The notes beneath the pieces were generated by a model that saw only the letters and a list, made by a program, of their open reading frames with translations, was not told where the DNA came from and did no database searches. Shown one piece after another: positions 9,691-57,526 of a stretch of DNA of 64,000 nt (its first letter is position 1; the number at the start of each line of letters is the position of its first letter). Location: assembly GCF_003018255.1 (NCBI RefSeq), contig NZ_CP027440.1, one strand, 5' to 3'. Position numbers and translations under genes: made by a program. Source of the DNA: Escherichia coli (GTDB lineage: Bacteria > Pseudomonadota > Gammaproteobacteria > Enterobacterales > Enterobacteriaceae).

Positions 9691-9810
9691 ATTCTCTTAA
9701 TTTGCATTAATCCTTTCTGATTATCTTGCTTAACTGCGCTGCATCAATGAATTGCGCCATCTCAATTTGCATACTTACCACTTTGTTTTGTGCAAGGGAA
9801 TATTTGCGCT

Positions 9811-11331
9811 ATGTCCGCAATCACTGAATCTAAACCAACAAGAAGATGGGCAATGCCCGATACGTTGGTGATTATCTTTTTTGTTGCCATTTTAACCAGC
9901 CTTGCCACCTGGGTAGTTCCGGTGGGCATGTTTGACAGTCAGGAAGTGCAGTATCAGGTTGATGGTCAAACAAAAACACGCAAAGTCGTAGATCCACACT
10001 CATTTCGCATTCTGACTAACGAAGCAGGCGAACCTGAGTATCACCGCGTACAGCTGTTCACGACGGGCGATGAACGCCCGGGTCTGATGAACTTCCCGTT
10101 TGAAGGGTTAACCTCAGGATCGAAATACGGGACAGCCGTTGGCATCATCATGTTTATGCTGGTGATTGGCGGCGCGTTTGGCATTGTGATGCGTACAGGA
10201 ACCATTGATAACGGTATCCTGGCGCTTATTCGCCATACCCGCGGAAATGAAATTCTCTTTATTCCTGCGCTCTTTATTCTGTTTTCACTTGGCGGCGCGG
10301 TATTTGGTATGGGAGAAGAGGCCGTCGCCTTTGCCATTATCATCGCACCGCTAATGGTCCGGCTGGGCTATGACAGTATTACCACCGTCCTGGTGACCTA
10401 TATCGCCACGCAAATCGGTTTTGCCAGTTCGTGGATGAACCCGTTTTGTGTGGTTGTTGCTCAGGGGATTGCCGGCGTTCCGGTGCTTTCTGGCTCCGGG
10501 TTGCGCATCGTGGTGTGGGTTATCGCCACTCTGATTGGCCTGATCTTTACCATGGTGTACGCCTCACGAGTGAAAAAGAATCCTCTTCTGTCACGCGTGC
10601 ATGAGTCCGACCGCTTCTTTCGTGAAAAGCAGGCGGATGTTGAACAACGTCCGTTTACCTTTGGTGACTGGCTGGTATTGATTGTCCTGACCGCCGTAAT
10701 GGTCTGGGTGATTTGGGGCGTGATCGTTAATGCCTGGTTTATTCCAGAAATTGCCAGCCAGTTCTTCACCATGGGTCTGGTGATTGGCATCATCGGCGTT
10801 GTTTTCCGCCTTAACGGCATGACGGTTAATACCATGGCTTCATCCTTTACCGAAGGGGCGCGAATGATGATCGCCCCTGCCCTCCTGGTGGGTTTCGCCA
10901 AAGGGATTTTGCTGCTGGTCGGTAATGGTGAAGCGGGTGATGCCAGCGTGTTAAATACCATCCTCAACAGCATTGCCAATGCCATTAGCGGTCTGGATAA
11001 CGCGGTCGCGGCCTGGTTTATGTTGCTCTTCCAGGCGGTATTTAATTTCTTCGTGACATCTGGTTCTGGTCAGGCGGCGTTAACCATGCCGTTACTGGCA
11101 CCGCTTGGCGATCTGGTCGGTGTAAACCGTCAGGTTACCGTTCTGGCGTTCCAGTTTGGTGATGGCTTCAGCCACATCATTTACCCGACCTCAGCTTCGT
11201 TAATGGCAACGCTCGGTGTTTGCCGGGTGGACTTCCGTAACTGGCTGAAGGTGGGCGCGACACTGCTTGGACTGCTGTTTATTATGTCCAGCGTCGTGGT
11301 GATCGGCGCTCAGTTGATGGGCTACCACTAA
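9811..11331 (+). CDS. yfcC: Putative C4-dicarboxylate-type transporter-family membrane protein YfcC
   Basis: ORF track 513 aa from upstream ATG; likely start MSAITESKP (506 aa). Confidence 0.88.
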   Translation: MSAITESKPTRRWAMPDTLVIIFFVAILTSLATWVVPVGMFDSQEVQYQVDGQTKTRKVVDPHSFRILTNEAGEPEYHRVQLFTTGDERPGLMNFPFEGLTSGSKYGTAVGIIMFMLVIGGAFGIVMRTGTIDNGILALIRHTRGNEILFIPALFILFSLGGAVFGMGEEAVAFAIIIAPLMVRLGYDSITTVLVTYIATQIGFASSWMNPFCVVVAQGIAGVPVLSGSGLRIVVWVIATLIGLIFTMVYASRVKKNPLLSRVHESDRFFREKQADVEQRPFTFGDWLVLIVLTAVMVWVIWGVIVNAWFIPEIASQFFTMGLVIGIIGVVFRLNGMTVNTMASSFTEGARMMIAPALLVGFAKGILLLVGNGEAGDASVLNTILNSIANAISGLDNAVAAWFMLLFQAVFNFFVTSGSGQAALTMPLLAPLGDLVGVNRQVTVLAFQFGDGFSHIIYPTSASLMATLGVCRVDFRNWLKVGATLLGLLFIMSSVVVIGAQLMGYH

Positions 11332-33115: not shown

Positions 33116-34336
33116 TTAATCTTTCAGCTTGCGCATTACCAGCGTGGCGTTGGTGCCGCCGAAGCCGAAGCTGTTAGACATAACGGTGGTCAGTTCGCGA
33201 TCGGTCGTTTCGGTCACGATGTTCAGACCCGCAGCCTGCTCGTCCAGCTCTTCAATGTTGATGCTCGGGGCGATAAAGCCGTGTTCCAGCATCAGCAGAG
33301 AGTAGATAGCTTCCTGTACGCCAGCAGCGCCCAGAGAGTGACCGGTCATTGCTTTGGTTGCAGAAATCGCCGGGCTCTTATCGCCGAACACTTCACGGAT
33401 AGCAGCCAGCTCTTTCACGTCGCCAACCGGAGTCGAAGTACCGTGGGAGTTCAGGTAGTCGATTGGGGTATCAACACCGTGCATCGCCATCTTCATGCAA
33501 CGCACTGCGCCTTCGCCAGACGGAGCAACCATGTCTGCGCCATCAGACGTTGCGCCGTAGCCAACGATTTCAGCGTAGATATGAGCACCACGTGCCAACG
33601 CGTGTTCCAGTTCTTCGACCACCACCATACCGCCGCCGCCAGCGATAACGAAACCGTCACGGTGAGCGTCATAAGTACGGGAGGCTTTTTCCGGGGTGTC
33701 GTTGTATTTGGTAGACAGCGCACCCATCGCGTCGAATTCACAAGCCATTTCCCAGCACAGCTCTTCGCCGCCACCAGCAAACACGATGTCCTGTTTGCCC
33801 AGTTGGATCTGCTCTACTGCGTTACCGATACAGTGTGCGGAGGTCGCACACGCGGAGCTGATGGAGTAGTTTACACCGTGAATTTTAAACGGCGTGGCGA
33901 GACAGGCAGAAACGCCGGATGCCATCGCTTTGGTGACCACATACGGGCCAACCGCTTTCAGGCCGCGCGGGCCGCGCATTGCGTCAGCGCCGAACACCTG
34001 AAAACGCGGGGAACCGCCGCCGGAACCTGCAATCAGGCCAACGCGCGGGTTATTCTGGTAAGCTTCCGGAGAGAGGCCAGCATCTGCAATTGCCTGCTCC
34101 ATAGAAAGGAATGCATAAATGGATGCGTCGCTCATAAAGCGCACAACTTTGCGGTCAATGAGGCCAGTGGTATCCAGTTTTACGTTGCCCCAGACGTGGC
34201 TACGCATGCCGGAATCCTTCAGCTCCTGAGAGAAAGTGATCCCTGAACGTCCTTCACGCAGAGATGCCAGGACTTCCTGCTGGTTATTACCGATGCTGGA
34301 AACAATGCCCAGGCCAGTAATCACTGCACGTTTCAT
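33116..34336 (-). CDS. fabB: 3-oxoacyl-ACP synthase I
   Basis: 406-aa ORF; recognised FabB. Confidence 0.96.
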
Positions 34337-34383
34337 TCAATACCTCTGTAAGTCGCACATAGAGTAAGTTTCGAATGCACAAT

Positions 34384-34400
34384 AGCGTACACTTGTACGC
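34384..34400. promoter_or_regulatory. FabR operator in fabB promoter
   Basis: palindrome agcgtacacttgtacgc ~50 bp upstream of fabB start; matches the known FabR box. Confidence 0.65.
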
Positions 34401-34401
34401 C

Positions 34402-34417
34402 GAACAAGTCCGATCAG
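34402..34417. promoter_or_regulatory. FadR activator site in fabB promoter
   Basis: minus-strand ctgatcggacttgttc resembles FadR consensus; position adjacent to the FabR box. Confidence 0.6.
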
Positions 34418-34428
34418 CCAATTAATAG

Positions 34429-36501
<2,073 letters not shown>

Positions 36502-49701: not shown

Positions 49702-51846
49702 TTATTGCAGGTCAGTTGCAGTTGTTTTCCAAAAACTTTCCCCACGCTTGCTCATCTCGACTAAACGCTCGCAAGGGGTAAAACGGGAACCATACTGCGT
49801 GGCCAGTCGTTGCATTATTGCAACCACTTCACCCGCACCGAGAGAATCGATGTAGCGGAACGGACCACCGAGAAATGGCGGAAAACCAATGCCAAATACC
49901 GCGCCAATATCTCCGTCACGCACGCTACGGATAACCTGCTCGTCCAGACAACGTACTGCTTCATTCAGCATCAACATCACACACCGTTCAGCTACCTGCG
50001 GTGCGGAGAGTCGCCCCTGCCCTTGTGTGCCAATGAGCGGGTAAATGGCGGGATCGACCTGTTTTTTGCTTTTACGCCCTTTCTGACCATAAAGATAGAA
50101 ACCCCGGCCATTTTTTCTGCCTTTGCGATCGTCGTTCAAAATTGAAGAAACAACATTTGCAGGCGCGCTAAAACGTTCTCCATAAGCGGCTTCCAGTACA
50201 GGAATAATTTTAGTCCCGGTGTCGATTCCTACCTCATCCAAAAGTTGGATTGGGCCTACCGGAAAACCAAATTTCACCAGCGCGGTATCAATGTGCTCTA
50301 CCCGTTCACCTTCGGTCAACATGCGGATAGCTTCATTAATGTAAGGCGCTAAGATGCGATTGACGTAAAACCCGGCTTTGTCACGCACGACAATTGGCGT
50401 TTTGCCCTGTTTTTTCGCCAGTTTTACTGTGGTGGCGATGGTTTGCGCCGATGTACCGGCATGGGGAATAATTTCTACCAACGGCATTTTTTCCACCGGA
50501 CTGAAGAAATGCAGGCCAATAACTTGCTCAGGTCGCGCGGCGTGAGCGGCGATATCGCCAATCGGTAAAGATGACGTGTTCGAAGCAAAGATGGTATGAG
50601 CGGCGCAATTTTGCTCAACTTCCGCCACCATTTGTTGTTTTAATTCGAGATTTTCAAACACCGCTTCAATAATCAGATCGCGATGGGCAAAGCCGCAATA
50701 GTCCGTCGTTCCGGAGATTAATGCCAGCTGTCTGTCACGTTCGCTGGCTTTGAGATGACGACGGCGAACTTTGCCCTCCAGCTGATCCCAACTGTACTTC
50801 AGCGCATGATTTATGCCCTGCGGGTTGATATCTTTAATTCTGACCGGAAGCCCCGCTTTACAAGCAGTGACATAAGCAATACCGCCGCCCATCAAGCCAC
50901 CACCTAAAATTCCCACGCTGTTTAATGGCGCAGGCGGCGCATCACTGCCAGGATCTTTCTTCACGTCCGTACTGGCAAAAAAGATACTACGCAGCGCCTG
51001 CGATTGCGGCGTCATCACCAGTTCGCCAAAAGCACGGGCTTCAGCGTCATAGCCGCCACTGGTGCCCTGCGCTAATCCCGTTTCGACAACCTCCAGGATG
51101 CGTTCTGTCGCCGGATAGTTACCTTGAGTTTTGTGTTCTGTTTTCTTACCGACCATTTTGAACAGCAGCGCACGACCTAACGGCCCCGCCAGAATACGCT
51201 CGCGTACAGGTAGAGGGCGTGAAGATGGGCGATCCTGCTTTGCCAGCTCAACAGCGGCTTCCAGTAAAATGGATTGCGGAACGACGTCATCCACCAGCCC
51301 CAGCTTTAATGCCTGTTTCGCCCGAAGTTGTTTTCCAGTGAGGATCATCTCCAATGCTGTGCTGACACCTATCAGGCGCGGTAAACGCTGGGTGCCGCCT
51401 GAACCGGGTAATAATCCAAGTTGTACTTCAGGCAAACCGAGCACCGTTTTAGGATCGTCAGTACACATGCGACCGTGGCACGCCAGCGCCAACTCCAGCC
51501 CACCGCCCAGGCAAGCGCCATGAATAGCCGCGATAACCGGAACGGGCAAAGCATGAATCTCCGCCATCAACTGTTGGCCCTGCCGCGCCAGTGCTTCCGC
51601 TTCTTGCGCCGTTTTGCAGTTGGCGATCATGTTGATGTCTGCGCCAGCAATGAAGTTGTCTGGTTTCGCGGAGATAAACACCACGCCGCGCAACTCTTTG
51701 TTTTCACGGAGTTGCTTAATAATGGCGCGCACCTGCGAGGCAAACTCCGCCTTCAGGGTATTCATTTTCTCACCCGGTACGTCGATGGTGATAACAGCAA
51801 TGTTGTCCAGACGGACATTAAGGGTAAACGCTGATGCCATTTCCAT
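49702..51846 (-). CDS. fadJ: Anaerobic fatty-acid oxidation multifunctional enzyme (enoyl-CoA hydratase / 3-hydroxyacyl-CoA dehydrogenase)
   Basis: 714-aa ORF. Confidence 0.95.
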
Positions 51847-53156
51847 TATTCCGCCTCCACAACCATTGCCGCGCCAAGCCCACCCGCAGCACAGGCGGTC
51901 ACTAAACCAAATCCACCGCCGCGACGGCGAAGTTCATGCAATGTCTGGGTAATCATCCGCGCGCCGGTCGCCGCGAAGGGATGCCCGTAAGCAATCGAAC
52001 CGCCAAGCACGTTAAATTTGCTATCGTCCATTTCGCCAGTGGCATGTGCACGCCCCAGTACATCACGAGCAAAACGTTCGCTACCCAGCAACTGAATATT
52101 CGCCAGTGTCTGAGCTGCAAAGGCTTCGTGCATATCGAGCAATGTCAGATCGCTCATTGTCAAACCGGCACGTTCCAGCGCCAGCGGCGTTGACCAGGCC
52201 GGACCGAGCAACATGTCCTGCCAGACATCTATCGCAGTAAATGCGTAACTGCGCAGATACCCCAGCGGTACCAGCCCTAATTCTTTCGCCCGCGATTCGG
52301 TCATCAGGATCACCGCCGCTGCGCCATCGGTCAGCGGCGTACTGTTTGCTGCCGTTACCGTCCCGTGTTTACGATCAAACGCCGGACGCAACTTTGCGTA
52401 ATCAGCAAGCGAGGAATTACCGCGAATATTGTTGTCTTCGGCAAGCGGTTGTTTATAAGGAGGGATAAAGGCAGTCATCACCTCTTCTTTGAGTTTACCG
52501 TCTGACCACGCCTGAGCGGCTCGCTGATGCGAACGGTGCGCTAATGCATCTTGCTGTTCGCGAGTAATACCGTAGGTTTTCGCCATTTGTTCAGCGGTGT
52601 CGCCCATCCGCAAGCCAGTAGAGTATTCCGCCACTGCCGGAGGCACCGGCATTAAGTCGCGCAAACGCAGGCGAGAGAAGAGTTTCAGGCGCTGGCTCAT
52701 GGTTCGAGCTTTGTTGACATCAACCAGCACGCGCGCCAGTTTTTTACTGACGCCAATTGGCAATACGGAAGAGGAATCGGCCCCACCGGCAATCCCCGCG
52801 CGAATAGTTCCCGCCATCAGGCTTTCTGCGACGTTTGCAATCGCCTGGAAACTGGTAGCGCAAGCGCGGCTGACGCTGTAAGCATCGGTATGCACATTCA
52901 TTCCGGTACCGAGAACAATTTCACGCGCAATGTTGGGGGCTTCAGGCATTTGTACGACCTGACCAAAAACCAGTTGTTCAATCACTTCGGCGGGGATCTC
53001 GCTGCGTGCCAGCAGTTCGCCTACCACCATCTTCCCCAAATCAACAGCAGGAATGCCATGAAAAGCCGTCGCCTGGCGGGCAAAAGGCGTACGTAAACCG
53101 CTAACAATGGCGATACGATCGCCCTGGCGGGTAACCAGCGGTAAAACCTGACCCAT
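51846..53156 (-). CDS. fadI: 3-ketoacyl-CoA thiolase (anaerobic)
   Basis: 436-aa ORF; stop overlaps fadJ start. Confidence 0.95.
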
Positions 53157-53183: not shown

Positions 53184-53200
53184 AGTGGTCTGACCTGATC
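53184..53200. promoter_or_regulatory. Putative FadR operator in fadIJ promoter
   Basis: agtggtctgacctgatc resembles FadR consensus (..TGGTCnGACcTGtt); ~30-45 bp upstream of fadI start. Confidence 0.55.
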
Positions 53201-53866: not shown

Positions 53867-53907
53867 AGCTGGTCCGACCTATACTCTCGCCACTGGTCTG
53901 ATTTCTA
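53867..53907. promoter_or_regulatory. Two FadR operators in fadL promoter
   Basis: agctggtccgacctata and cactggtctgatttcta, ~85-125 bp upstream of fadL start. Confidence 0.7.
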
Positions 53908-53992
53908 AGATGTACCTCAGACCCTACACTTCGCGCTCCTGTTACAGCACGTAACATAGTTTGTATAAAAATAAATCATTGAGGTTATGGTC

Positions 53993-55333
53993 ATGAGCCA
54001 GAAAACCCTGTTTACAAAGTCTGCTCTCGCAGTCGCAGTGGCACTTATCTCCACCCAGGCCTGGTCGGCAGGCTTTCAGTTAAACGAATTTTCTTCCTCT
54101 GGCCTGGGCCGGGCTTATTCAGGGGAAGGTGCAATTGCCGATGATGCAGGTAACGTTAGCCGTAACCCCGCATTGATTACCATGTTTGACCGCCCGACAT
54201 TTTCTGCGGGTGCGGTTTATATTGATCCGGATGTAAATATCAGCGGAACGTCTCCGTCTGGTCGTAGCCTGAAAGCCGATAACATCGCGCCTACGGCATG
54301 GGTTCCGAACATGCACTTTGTTGCACCGATTAACGACCAATTTGGTTGGGGGGCTTCAATTACCTCTAACTATGGTCTGGCGACAGAGTTTAACGATACT
54401 TATGCAGGCGGTTCTGTCGGTGGTACCACCGACCTCGAAACCATGAACCTGAACTTAAGCGGTGCATATCGCTTAAATAATGCATGGAGCTTTGGTCTTG
54501 GTTTCAACGCCGTCTACGCTCGCGCGAAAATTGAACGTTTCGCAGGCGATCTGGGGCAACTGGTGGCTGGTCAGATTAGGCAATCTCCTGCTTGGCTGAC
54601 TCCTCAGGGGCAAGCATTAGCAGCTACCGCCAACGGCATCGACAGTAATACCAAAATCGCTCACCTGAACGGTAACCAGTGGGGCTTTGGCTGGAACGCC
54701 GGTATCCTGTATGAACTGGATAAAAACAACCGCTACGCATTGACCTACCGCTCTGAAGTGAAAATTGACTTCAAGGGTAACTACAGCAGCGATCTTAACC
54801 CGGCTTTTAATAACTACGGTTTGCCAATTCCTACCGCGACAGGTGGCGCAACGCAGTCGGGTTATCTGACGCTGAACCTGCCTGAAATGTGGGAAGTGTC
54901 GGGTTATAACCGTGTTGATCCGCAGTGGGCAATTCACTATAGCCTGGCTTACACCAGCTGGAGTCAGTTCCAGCAGCTGAAAGCGACCTCAACGAGTGGC
55001 GACACGCTGTTCCAGAAACATGAAGGCTTTAAAGATGCTTACCGCATCGCGTTGGGAACCACTTATTACTACGATGATAACTGGACCTTCCGTACCGGTA
55101 TCGCCTTTGATGACAGCCCAGTTCCGGCACAGAATCGTTCTATCTCCATTCCGGACCAGGACCGTTTCTGGCTGAGTGCAGGTACGACTTACGCATTTAA
55201 TAAAGATGCTTCAGTCGATGTTGGTGTTTCTTATATGCACGGTCAGAGCGTGAAAATTAACGAAGGCCCATACCAGTTCGAGTCTGAAGGTAAAGCCTGG
55301 CTGTTCGGTACTAACTTTAACTACGCGTTCTGA
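53993..55333 (+). CDS. fadL: Long-chain fatty acid outer-membrane transporter
   Basis: 446 aa from [18 protein letters not shown]; C-terminal ..NFNYAF. Confidence 0.95.
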
Positions 55334-57451: not shown

Positions 57452-57526
57452 GTCCTCTTAGTTAAATGGATATAACGAGCCCCTCCTAAGGGCTAATTGC
57501 AGGTTCGATTCCTGCAGGGGACACCA
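57452..57526 (+). tRNA. argW: tRNA-Arg (anticodon CCU)
   Basis: 75-nt sequence read directly, matches argW as recalled; anticodon loop cuCCUaa; ends ..ACACCA. Confidence 0.95.

What the first reader, a model, noticed from the sequence alone, without database searches (positions are those of the whole stretch)
34384..34417. Adjacent FabR and FadR sites in the fabB promoter
The palindrome agcgtacacttgtacgc (FabR box) is followed two bases later by a FadR-like site. This is the expected dual control of unsaturated fatty-acid synthesis and serves mainly as a check that regulatory architecture is conserved here.
Basis: established knowledge. Interest (0 to 1): 0.15.

Follow-up and report, generated by a model that had tools for sequence, protein, structure and literature searches.

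The report
Known FadR and FabR sites, fabB promoter
This is the well-known control region of the E. coli fabB gene, where an activator (FadR) and a repressor (FabR) bind side by side to set the level of unsaturated fatty acid synthesis; it is base-for-base the same as in strain K-12 and is ordinary.

Summary
The window is E. coli. fabB lies at 33116-34336 (-) and mnmC starts at 34495 (+). In between, the + strand reads AGCGTACACTTGTACGC (34384-34400), then cg, then AACAAGTCCGATCAGCC (34403-19).

Three small corrections:
- The perfect inverted repeat is 7+2+7 bases at 34385-34400. The published FabR palindrome is 18 bp, 34384-34401.
- The full 17-bp FadR site ends at 34419, two bases beyond the finding's end.
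- In the direction of fabB transcription, FadR is upstream (about -46 to -30, over the -35) and FabR is downstream (about -28 to -11, abutting the -10).

From 34420 to the ATG the sequence is identical to K-12 MG1655. It also matches the published fabB gel-shift probes except at 34421, outside both sites. The 47-bp core is 100% identical in 5395 of 5425 complete E. coli genomes. Both sites, two bases apart, occur upstream of fabB in 73 of 80 Enterobacterales species, at about 93% column conservation against about 57% in the flanks. A chance origin is excluded.

Mechanism, from the literature: FadR activates and is released by long-chain acyl-CoA; FabR represses when loaded with unsaturated acyl-ACP.

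Already known. Interest is low.

The parts
33116..34336 (-). fabB coding sequence (beta-ketoacyl-ACP synthase I, 406 aa), the regulated gene
   Evidence: ORF list. RefSeq annotation of a 100%-identical genome: fabB, WP_000817178.1.
34337..34373 (-). fabB 5' untranslated leader. The transcription start is at about 34373 (plus or minus 1).
   Evidence: [quoted passage not shown] I transferred it to the window because the sequence is identical. The paper's numbering was checked against its CpxR box coordinates.
34379..34384 (-). -10 hexamer TATTGT (4 of 6 matches to TATAAT). Its first base is the last base of the 18-bp FabR site.
   Evidence: Position relative to the published start (inference). 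Across 73 Enterobacterales species this hexamer reads TATTGT, TAAAGT, TAGAGT or TATCTT. That is TAnnnT, with the diagnostic positions kept and the inner ones free.
34384..34401 (.). FabR operator. The 18-bp palindrome is GGCGTACAAGTGTACGCT on the - strand. The perfect 7+2+7 inverted repeat is 34385-34400. It spans about -28 to -11.
   Evidence: Marked as the predicted FabR palindrome in the fabB_ec probe (PMC4537474). Mean column conservation is 94% in 80 species.
34402..34407 (-). -35-like hexamer TTGTTC (3 of 6 matches), 17 bp upstream of the -10. It is mostly formed by the promoter-proximal half of the FadR site.
   Evidence: Inference from spacing. A strict sigma-70 consensus scan finds no promoter here, which fits a weak, activator-dependent promoter. 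TTGTTC is kept even in the genera that lack the rest of the FadR site.
34403..34419 (-). FadR site, 17 bp, GGCTGATCGGACTTGTT on the - strand, at about -46 to -30.
   Evidence: One mismatch to the FadR core consensus. It lies within the probes shifted by FadR. The core CTGATCGGACTTGTT is identical in 67 of 73 species. Column conservation is 93%.
34434..34448 (-). Position of the published CpxR box of the K-12 fabB promoter. It reads GTCAGgctgcGCAAA here, against GTAAGgctgcGCAAA in K-12. It is a neighbour of the finding, not part of it.
   Evidence: PMC7083825 Table 1 and footprint at -119 to -94. Alignments.
34495..36501 (+). mnmC, the divergently transcribed neighbour (GTG start).
   Evidence: RefSeq annotation of identical DNA and of K-12. 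Sequence.

Best explanation
This is the canonical E. coli fabB promoter with its two adjacent operators.

FadR is a GntR-family dimer. It binds the 17-bp site at 34403-34419, which overlaps the weak -35, and activates transcription. Long-chain acyl-CoA made from imported fatty acids releases FadR, and activation is lost.

FabR is a TetR-family dimer. It binds the 18-bp palindrome at 34384-34401, which fills the spacer between -35 and -10 and touches the -10. It represses, presumably by excluding RNA polymerase. Repression is strengthened by unsaturated acyl-ACP or acyl-CoA and relieved by saturated acyl-ACP. FabB output therefore follows the saturated-to-unsaturated balance of the acyl pool.

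Shown here: the sequence, its position, its identity to K-12 and to the published binding probes, and strong purifying selection on both sites and on their spacing.

Taken from the literature: protein binding, ligand effects and the transcription start.

Inferred: the -35 and -10 assignments and repression by steric occlusion.
For: - Location and identity: fabB and mnmC annotation on 100%-identical DNA. Base-for-base identity with MG1655 from 34420 to the ATG.
- Match to the fabB probes that FadR shifts and on which the FabR palindrome is marked (PMC4259882; PMC4537474).
- Published start 37 bp upstream of the ATG (PMC7083825). [quoted passage not shown]
- Not chance.
- Selection within E. coli: the 47-bp core is 100% identical in 5395 of 5425 genomes. 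The whole 158-bp spacer is at least 99% identical in only 79.
- Selection across Enterobacterales: 73 of 80 species carry both sites with the same 2-nt gap. Column conservation is 93-94% in the sites, against 56-58% in the leader and the upstream flank.
- Half-site changes G to T and C to A sometimes occur symmetrically (GCTTACA..TGTAAGC), which keeps the dyad.
- The fabA promoter of K-12 carries the same 36-bp module, 32 of 36 bases identical.
- fabR is present in 5424 and fadR in 5422 of 5426 E. coli genomes.
- Positive control: the same FadR scan recovers the known fadL sites and a site just upstream of fadI in this window.
- Ligand logic: PMC11525553 and PMC3896788.
Against: Nothing in the data contradicts it. 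The limits are these:
- No binding or expression experiment can be done here.
- The primary footprint papers were not readable. Exact footprint borders are therefore taken from probe markings and from text about fabA.
- The -10 sits only 5 nt from the stated start, so the start may be off by 1.
- The literature disagrees on whether FabR needs an unsaturated thioester to bind or is only helped by it. PMC4804515 summarises Feng & Cronan 2011 on this point.
Confidence: 0.95

Rival explanations
1. The palindrome acts as a nucleic-acid structure (a cruciform, or an RNA hairpin or terminator) rather than as a protein-binding site.
For: It is a perfect 7-nt-arm inverted repeat.
Against: - The loop would be only 2 nt. 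The single-strand DNA fold uses 6 pairs at -5.2 or -5.3 kcal/mol, with z-scores of -1.4 and -1.0 against shuffles, which is not significant.
- No terminator-like site was found.
- It lies upstream of the fabB start at about 34373. It also lies upstream of the likely mnmC promoter, so it should not be transcribed into either mRNA.
- Across species, each base of the arms is conserved in itself. Compensatory, structure-preserving changes are not the general pattern. The 2 central bases are free. This is what a dimeric protein operator looks like.
Confidence: 0.01
2. Only one of the two sites works here. The FadR-like sequence is kept merely because it supplies the -35, and fabB in this strain is in practice regulated by FabR alone.
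For: - FabR is reported as the dominant regulator of fabB, and FadR of fabA (PMC3896788; PMC11525553).
- Three genomes (two Rosenbergiella, one Schmidhempelia) keep TTGTTC and the FabR palindrome but lack the distal FadR half.
- Vibrio and Shewanella fabB lack a FadR site (PMC4537474).
Against: - The distal half CTGATCGG, which has no role in the -35, is as conserved as the proximal half: at least 90% per column, with the whole core identical in 67 of 73 species.
- FadR shifts the probe carrying this site.
- fabB-lacZ falls 2 to 2.5-fold in a fadR mutant (PMC4259882).
Confidence: 0.04
3. Chance resemblance: a random palindrome next to a random FadR-like word.
For: Inverted repeats with 7-nt arms are common in the window: 4 to 7 per spacer length.
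Against: - The expected number of such adjacent pairs is about 1e-8 per window.
- The sites are invariant in about 99.4% of 5425 E. coli genomes.
- They are present in 73 of 80 species.
- They are identical to experimentally used operators.
Confidence: 0.001

Closest known systems
E. coli K-12 fabB promoter (FadR activator site plus FabR operator; Campbell & Cronan 2001, Zhang et al. 2002, Feng & Cronan 2011)
   Same: The sequence is identical from 2 nt upstream of the FadR site to the ATG. The genes, orientation and distances are the same. It matches the published probes.
   Different: Nothing differs within the sites. One base 2 nt upstream of the FadR site differs (34421, T here, A in K-12). 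So do positions further upstream, at 34446 and in the 34457-34479 region.
E. coli fabA promoter (the paralogous FadR-FabR module)
   Same: The order and abutment are the same. The FadR core CTGATCGGACTTGTT is identical, followed by C, then the FabR palindrome, then a -10 that starts TAT. 32 of 36 bases are identical.
   Different: - The fabA palindrome is imperfect (GCGTACACGTGTTAGC).
- The module sits 9 nt closer to the ATG (72 against 81 nt).
- fabA has additional start sites.
- FadR is reported to dominate at fabA, and FabR at fabB.
DesT/FabR sites upstream of Pseudomonas fabAB, and the fabB promoters of Vibrio and Shewanella
   Same: The same TetR-family repressor type and a related palindrome control unsaturated fatty acid genes.
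   Different: In P. aeruginosa the repressor site lies upstream of a different activator site, and there is no FadR. V. cholerae and Shewanella fabB lack the FadR site. In my sample, the non-enterobacterial Alkalimonas has only a FabR-like palindrome.

Membership tests
FabR (TetR-family) operator of unsaturated fatty acid genes | An 18-bp palindrome of the type AGCGTACAnnTGTACGCT | tested here: met
   Perfect 7+2+7 repeat at 34385-34400. It equals the palindrome marked in the published fabB probe. At up to 3 mismatches the only hits in 64 kb are this site on its two strands, against 0.05 expected.
FabR (TetR-family) operator of unsaturated fatty acid genes | It lies in the core promoter of fabA or fabB, next to or overlapping the -10 | tested here: met
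   It lies 48-65 nt upstream of the fabB ATG. With the published start it spans about -28 to -11, and its last base is the first base of TATTGT. The -10 assignment is an inference supported by the TAnnnT pattern.
FabR (TetR-family) operator of unsaturated fatty acid genes | Bound by FabR, with binding modulated by unsaturated acyl thioesters | not testable with these tools
   Literature only: ChIP of FabR at Salmonella fabB, plus a summary of the E. coli work (PMC4804515), and the ligand model (PMC11525553).
FabR (TetR-family) operator of unsaturated fatty acid genes | Conserved upstream of fabB orthologues (phylogenetic footprint) | tested here: met
   78 of 80 genomes have the palindrome with 2 mismatches or fewer. 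Column conservation is 94%, against about 57% in the flanks.
FabR (TetR-family) operator of unsaturated fatty acid genes | The cognate regulator gene is present in the genome | tested here: inconclusive
   fabR is not in the window. It is present in 5424 of 5426 complete E. coli genomes, so it is almost certainly in the source genome, but this was not shown directly.
FadR (GntR-family) site, activating class | A 17-bp site matching the core CTGGTCNGAYNTGTT | tested here: met
   CTGATCGGACTTGTT has 1 mismatch and is the best hit in the window. The same scan recovers the known fadL sites and a site just upstream of fadI.
FadR (GntR-family) site, activating class | Centred near -40, overlapping the -35 (activation) rather than downstream of it (repression) | tested here: met
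   It spans about -46 to -30 using the published start. This is the same geometry as stated for fabA. It depends on a transcription start transferred from the literature.
FadR (GntR-family) site, activating class | Bound by FadR and released by long-chain acyl-CoA, with lower expression in a fadR mutant | not testable with these tools
   Literature: gel shift of the probe carrying this site, and a 2 to 2.5-fold drop of fabB-lacZ in a fadR mutant (PMC4259882; PMC4537474).
FadR (GntR-family) site, activating class | The cognate regulator gene is present in the genome | tested here: inconclusive
   fadR is not in the window. It is present in 5422 of 5426 E. coli genomes.

The most novel reading that the evidence does not exclude
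FadR and FabR may be functionally coupled at this promoter rather than merely independent neighbours. Coupling could be by direct contact, or by FabR blocking the FadR-polymerase contact. The hint is that the abutment of the two operators is almost invariant: a 2-nt gap between FadR core and FabR repeat in 73 of 80 Enterobacterales species, and the same in fabA. My data do not exclude this. They are also fully explained by promoter geometry. The FadR half-site supplies the -35, the FabR site fills the 17-bp spacer, and the -10 follows at once, so any insertion or deletion would break the promoter.
Probability: 0.1. Interest if true: 0.3.

Novelty: already known. Interest (0 to 1): 0.05.

Why it matters
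It matters only as a control. It shows that the window is ordinary E. coli chromosome and that the first-stage reader can recognise a textbook dual-regulator promoter from raw sequence at the right coordinates. The biology is well established: FabB level sets the unsaturated fatty acid content and hence membrane fluidity, with FadR sensing imported fatty acids and FabR sensing the acyl-ACP pool. The cross-species tally made here (73 of 80 species with both sites at a fixed spacing) is a tidy confirmation, not a discovery.

Tried and rejected
- Primary papers. I tried to open Campbell & Cronan 2001 (PMC99677), Feng & Cronan 2011 (PMC4072462), Zhu et al. 2009 (PMC2787350), McCue et al. 2001 (PMC30389), My et al. 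2015 (PMC4420907) and Feng & Cronan 2009 (PMC2785586). None is held. I used open-access papers that reproduce the probes, site markings and start site instead. One literature search failed on syntax.
- Promoter scan. The sigma-70 and terminator consensus scan found nothing in 34250-34600. I read this as a weak, activator-dependent promoter, not as absence of a promoter.
- Hairpin or cruciform reading. Rejected, because fold z-scores are -1.4 and -1.0.
- Second inverted repeat (34391-34399 / 34401-34409) straddling the two sites. Judged incidental, because it depends on the two central bases of the FabR repeat, which vary freely between species.
- Direct repeat ATAGAGTAAGTTTCG / ATAGAGAAATTTGCG (D1). 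Judged chance, because one copy is not conserved.
- FabR-like word at 10046-10061, with 2 mismatches. It lies inside a 513-aa ORF, and about 0.2 such words are expected by chance.
- Rfam scan of the whole window. It found only one tRNA and nothing in the fabB-mnmC spacer.

Full report
**What is in the sequence**

The + strand reads ...caat AGCGTACACTTGTACGC cg AACAAGTCCGATCAGCC aatt... The FadR-like word is at 34403-34419.

The perfect inverted repeat is GCGTACA-CT-TGTACGC at 34385-34400, with 7-nt arms and a 2-nt spacer. On the - strand, which is the fabB strand, the stretch reads GGCTGATCGGACTTGTT-C-GGCGTACAAGTGTACGCT-ATTGTG.

The finding's coordinates (34384-34417) cover the FabR word and the 15-bp FadR core. 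The conventional 17-bp FadR site runs two bases further, to 34419.

**Where it is**

A 406-aa ORF at 33116-34336 on the - strand ends its upstream side 48 nt from the palindrome. The 351 bases around the site are 100% identical to several complete E. coli chromosomes, where RefSeq annotates fabB (beta-ketoacyl-ACP synthase I) and the divergent gene mnmC. All but one of 5426 E. coli genomes carry the region. The window is therefore E. coli, and the sites lie in the fabB-mnmC spacer, upstream of fabB.

**Is it more than chance?**

An inverted repeat with 7-nt arms is not rare. The window holds 4 to 7 for each spacer length from 0 to 4. The specific sequence is rare.

- The FadR core consensus CTGGTCNGAYNTGTT has its best match in the window here, with 1 mismatch.
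- Under an independent-base model, the expected number of exact FabR repeats with a FadR core (1 mismatch or fewer) within a few bases is about 1e-8 per window.
- As a positive control, the same FadR scan recovers two sites upstream of fadL (53869 and 53893). These match the published fadL-FadR1 and fadL-FadR2 probes. It also recovers one site 29-43 nt upstream of the fadI ATG.

**Comparison with the characterised promoter**

Aligned with K-12 MG1655, every base from 34420 down to the ATG is identical. That covers both sites, the core promoter and the leader.

Two open-access papers from the Feng laboratory list the 56-bp fabB gel-shift probe TCTATTAAATGGCTGATCGGACTTGTTCGGCGTACAAGTGTACGCTATTGTGCATTC.

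- It equals window 34429..34374 except for one base at 34421, outside both sites.
- E. coli FadR shifts this probe.
- fabB-lacZ falls 2 to 2.5-fold in a fadR mutant (PMC4259882; PMC4537474).
- In PMC4537474 the italic marks delimit GGCGTACAAGTGTACGCT as the FabR palindrome, which is 34401..34384.

[quoted passage not shown] I checked its numbering against its own CpxR box coordinates. That places the start at about 34373.

From that start, the positions are:

- FadR site: about -46 to -30.
- FabR site: about -28 to -11.
- -35-like hexamer TTGTTC (34407..34402): lies inside the FadR site.
- -10 hexamer TATTGT (34384..34379): begins with the last base of the FabR site. The spacer between -35 and -10 is 17 bp.

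The hexamer assignments are my inference. A strict consensus scan finds no promoter, as expected for a weak promoter that needs an activator. For the sister promoter fabA, PMC3462791 states that FabR binds over the -10 region and FadR over the -40 region. I could not open the primary footprint papers.

**Conservation within E. coli**

The 47-bp core (34374-34420) is 100% identical in 5395 of 5425 genomes. The whole 158-bp spacer is at least 99% identical to the window in only 79 genomes, and 90-95% identical in 5318. Variation therefore falls outside the operators. An alignment of six E. coli alleles, E. albertii and Salmonella shows the same thing.

**Conservation across species**

I searched one genome per species with the FabB protein and took the best 80 loci. 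They run from Escherichia to Morganella, plus an Alkalimonas genome.

| Pattern upstream of fabB | Genomes |
|---|---|
| FadR core (2 mismatches or fewer) and FabR repeat (2 mismatches or fewer) with exactly 2 nt between them | 73 |
| Both sites, 3-nt gap (Edwardsiella) | 2 |
| FabR repeat and TTGTTC kept, distal FadR half lacking (two Rosenbergiella, one Schmidhempelia) | 3 |
| Neither site recognisable (the endosymbiont Gullanella) | 1 |
| FabR-like repeat only (Alkalimonas) | 1 |

Further details:

- Identity to the window per column averages 0.93 in the FadR site, 0.94 in the FabR repeat, 0.71 from the -10 to the start, 0.56 in the leader and 0.58 upstream.
- The two central bases of the FabR repeat vary freely (AG, AC, TC, GG).
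- Position 3 of each arm varies G/T, sometimes symmetrically (GCTTACA..TGTAAGC).
- The hexamer after the repeat is always TAnnnT, which supports its role as the -10.

This pattern fits two dimeric protein operators packed into a promoter.

**Paralogue and regulators**

The K-12 fabA promoter carries the same module, CTGATCGGACTTGTT-C-AGCGTACACGTGTTAGCT-AT. It is identical to fabB at 32 of 36 positions. fabR and fadR are not in the window. They are present in 5424 and 5422 of 5426 E. coli genomes respectively.

**Mechanism**

The literature gives the following:

- FadR activates fabB and fabA and is released from DNA by long-chain acyl-CoA.
- FabR represses both genes. [quoted passage not shown]
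- FabR dominates at fabB, and FadR dominates at fabA.

The geometry found here fits this. The activator sits over the -35. The repressor occupies the spacer and the edge of the -10, where it would exclude RNA polymerase. That last step is inferred, not shown.

**Rivals**

- A structural role for the palindrome is unlikely. The loop would be 2 nt, fold z-scores are -1.4 and -1.0, and the repeat lies upstream of the start, so it should not be transcribed.
- A FadR-like word kept only as a -35 does not explain the equal conservation of its distal half or the published binding and genetics.
- Chance is excluded.

**Verdict**

This is the already known fabB regulatory region, unchanged from K-12. 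Interest is very low. Its value is as a sanity check.

Noticed in passing
window 34434-34448 (- strand): The published CpxR box of the K-12 fabB promoter is GTAAGgctgcGCAAA, at -112 to -98 from the ATG (PMC7083825). Here it reads GTCAGgctgcGCAAA, an A-to-C change at 34446 in the first half-site. Other E. coli (Ecol_656, Ec_U18) share the C. E. albertii has GCCAG and Salmonella GCCTG. Across 80 Enterobacterales only GCAAATTT (34438..34431) is at least 90% conserved. That block could equally be part of the divergent mnmC promoter.
   Followed up: partly
window 34457-34483: A cluster of differences from K-12 (9 of about 23 positions) lies in an otherwise near-identical spacer. It creates a perfect direct repeat CGTCAGAC at 34464-34471 and 34476-34483. 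The cluster sits between a likely mnmC -10 (TAAGAT, 34458-34463) and the mnmC GTG at 34495. The whole spacer allele is at least 99% matched in only 79 of 5425 E. coli genomes. Some of its bases agree with Salmonella. The cause is undetermined: it could be an old allele, recombination or a template switch.
   Followed up: partly
window 53869-53883, 53893-53907 and 53185-53199: The FadR consensus scan finds three other FadR-type sites. Two are upstream of fadL (ORF 53987-55333) and match the published fadL-FadR1 and fadL-FadR2 probes. One is 29-43 nt upstream of the fadI ATG (fadI 51846-53156, fadJ 49702-51846, both on the - strand). The window therefore holds at least three FadR-regulated promoters.
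   Followed up: partly
window 10046-10061: GCGTACAGCTGTTCAC has 2 mismatches to the FabR inverted repeat. It lies about 255 nt inside a 513-aa ORF (9790-11331, + strand). About 0.2 such matches are expected by chance, so it is probably meaningless.
   Followed up: partly
window 34391-34399 / 34401-34409: A second inverted repeat, ACTTGTACG / CGAACAAGT (8 of 9 complementary), straddles the FabR-FadR boundary. It relies on the central AG of the FabR repeat, which varies between species, so it is probably incidental.
   Followed up: yes
L045, L056 (Rosenbergiella), L073 (Candidatus Schmidhempelia), L076 (Candidatus Gullanella), L069 and L071 (Edwardsiella), about 60-110 nt upstream of fabB: These lineages depart from the standard module. 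Rosenbergiella and Schmidhempelia keep the FabR repeat and TTGTTC but lack the distal FadR half-site. The endosymbiont Gullanella has no recognisable FabR repeat and only a degenerate FadR-like word. Edwardsiella has both sites with a 3-nt gap and TGCC in place of TGTT. I did not check whether fadR or fabR are missing from those genomes.
   Followed up: no
window 57452-57523 (+): A tRNA gene is the only Rfam family match in the 64-kb window (63.4 bits).
   Followed up: no
window 34364-34370 and 34488-34494: The word AACTTAC occurs in the 5' leader of both divergent genes: fabB on the - strand and mnmC on the + strand, just before its GTG. Together they form a 7-nt inverted repeat 117 nt apart. 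This is probably chance.
   Followed up: no
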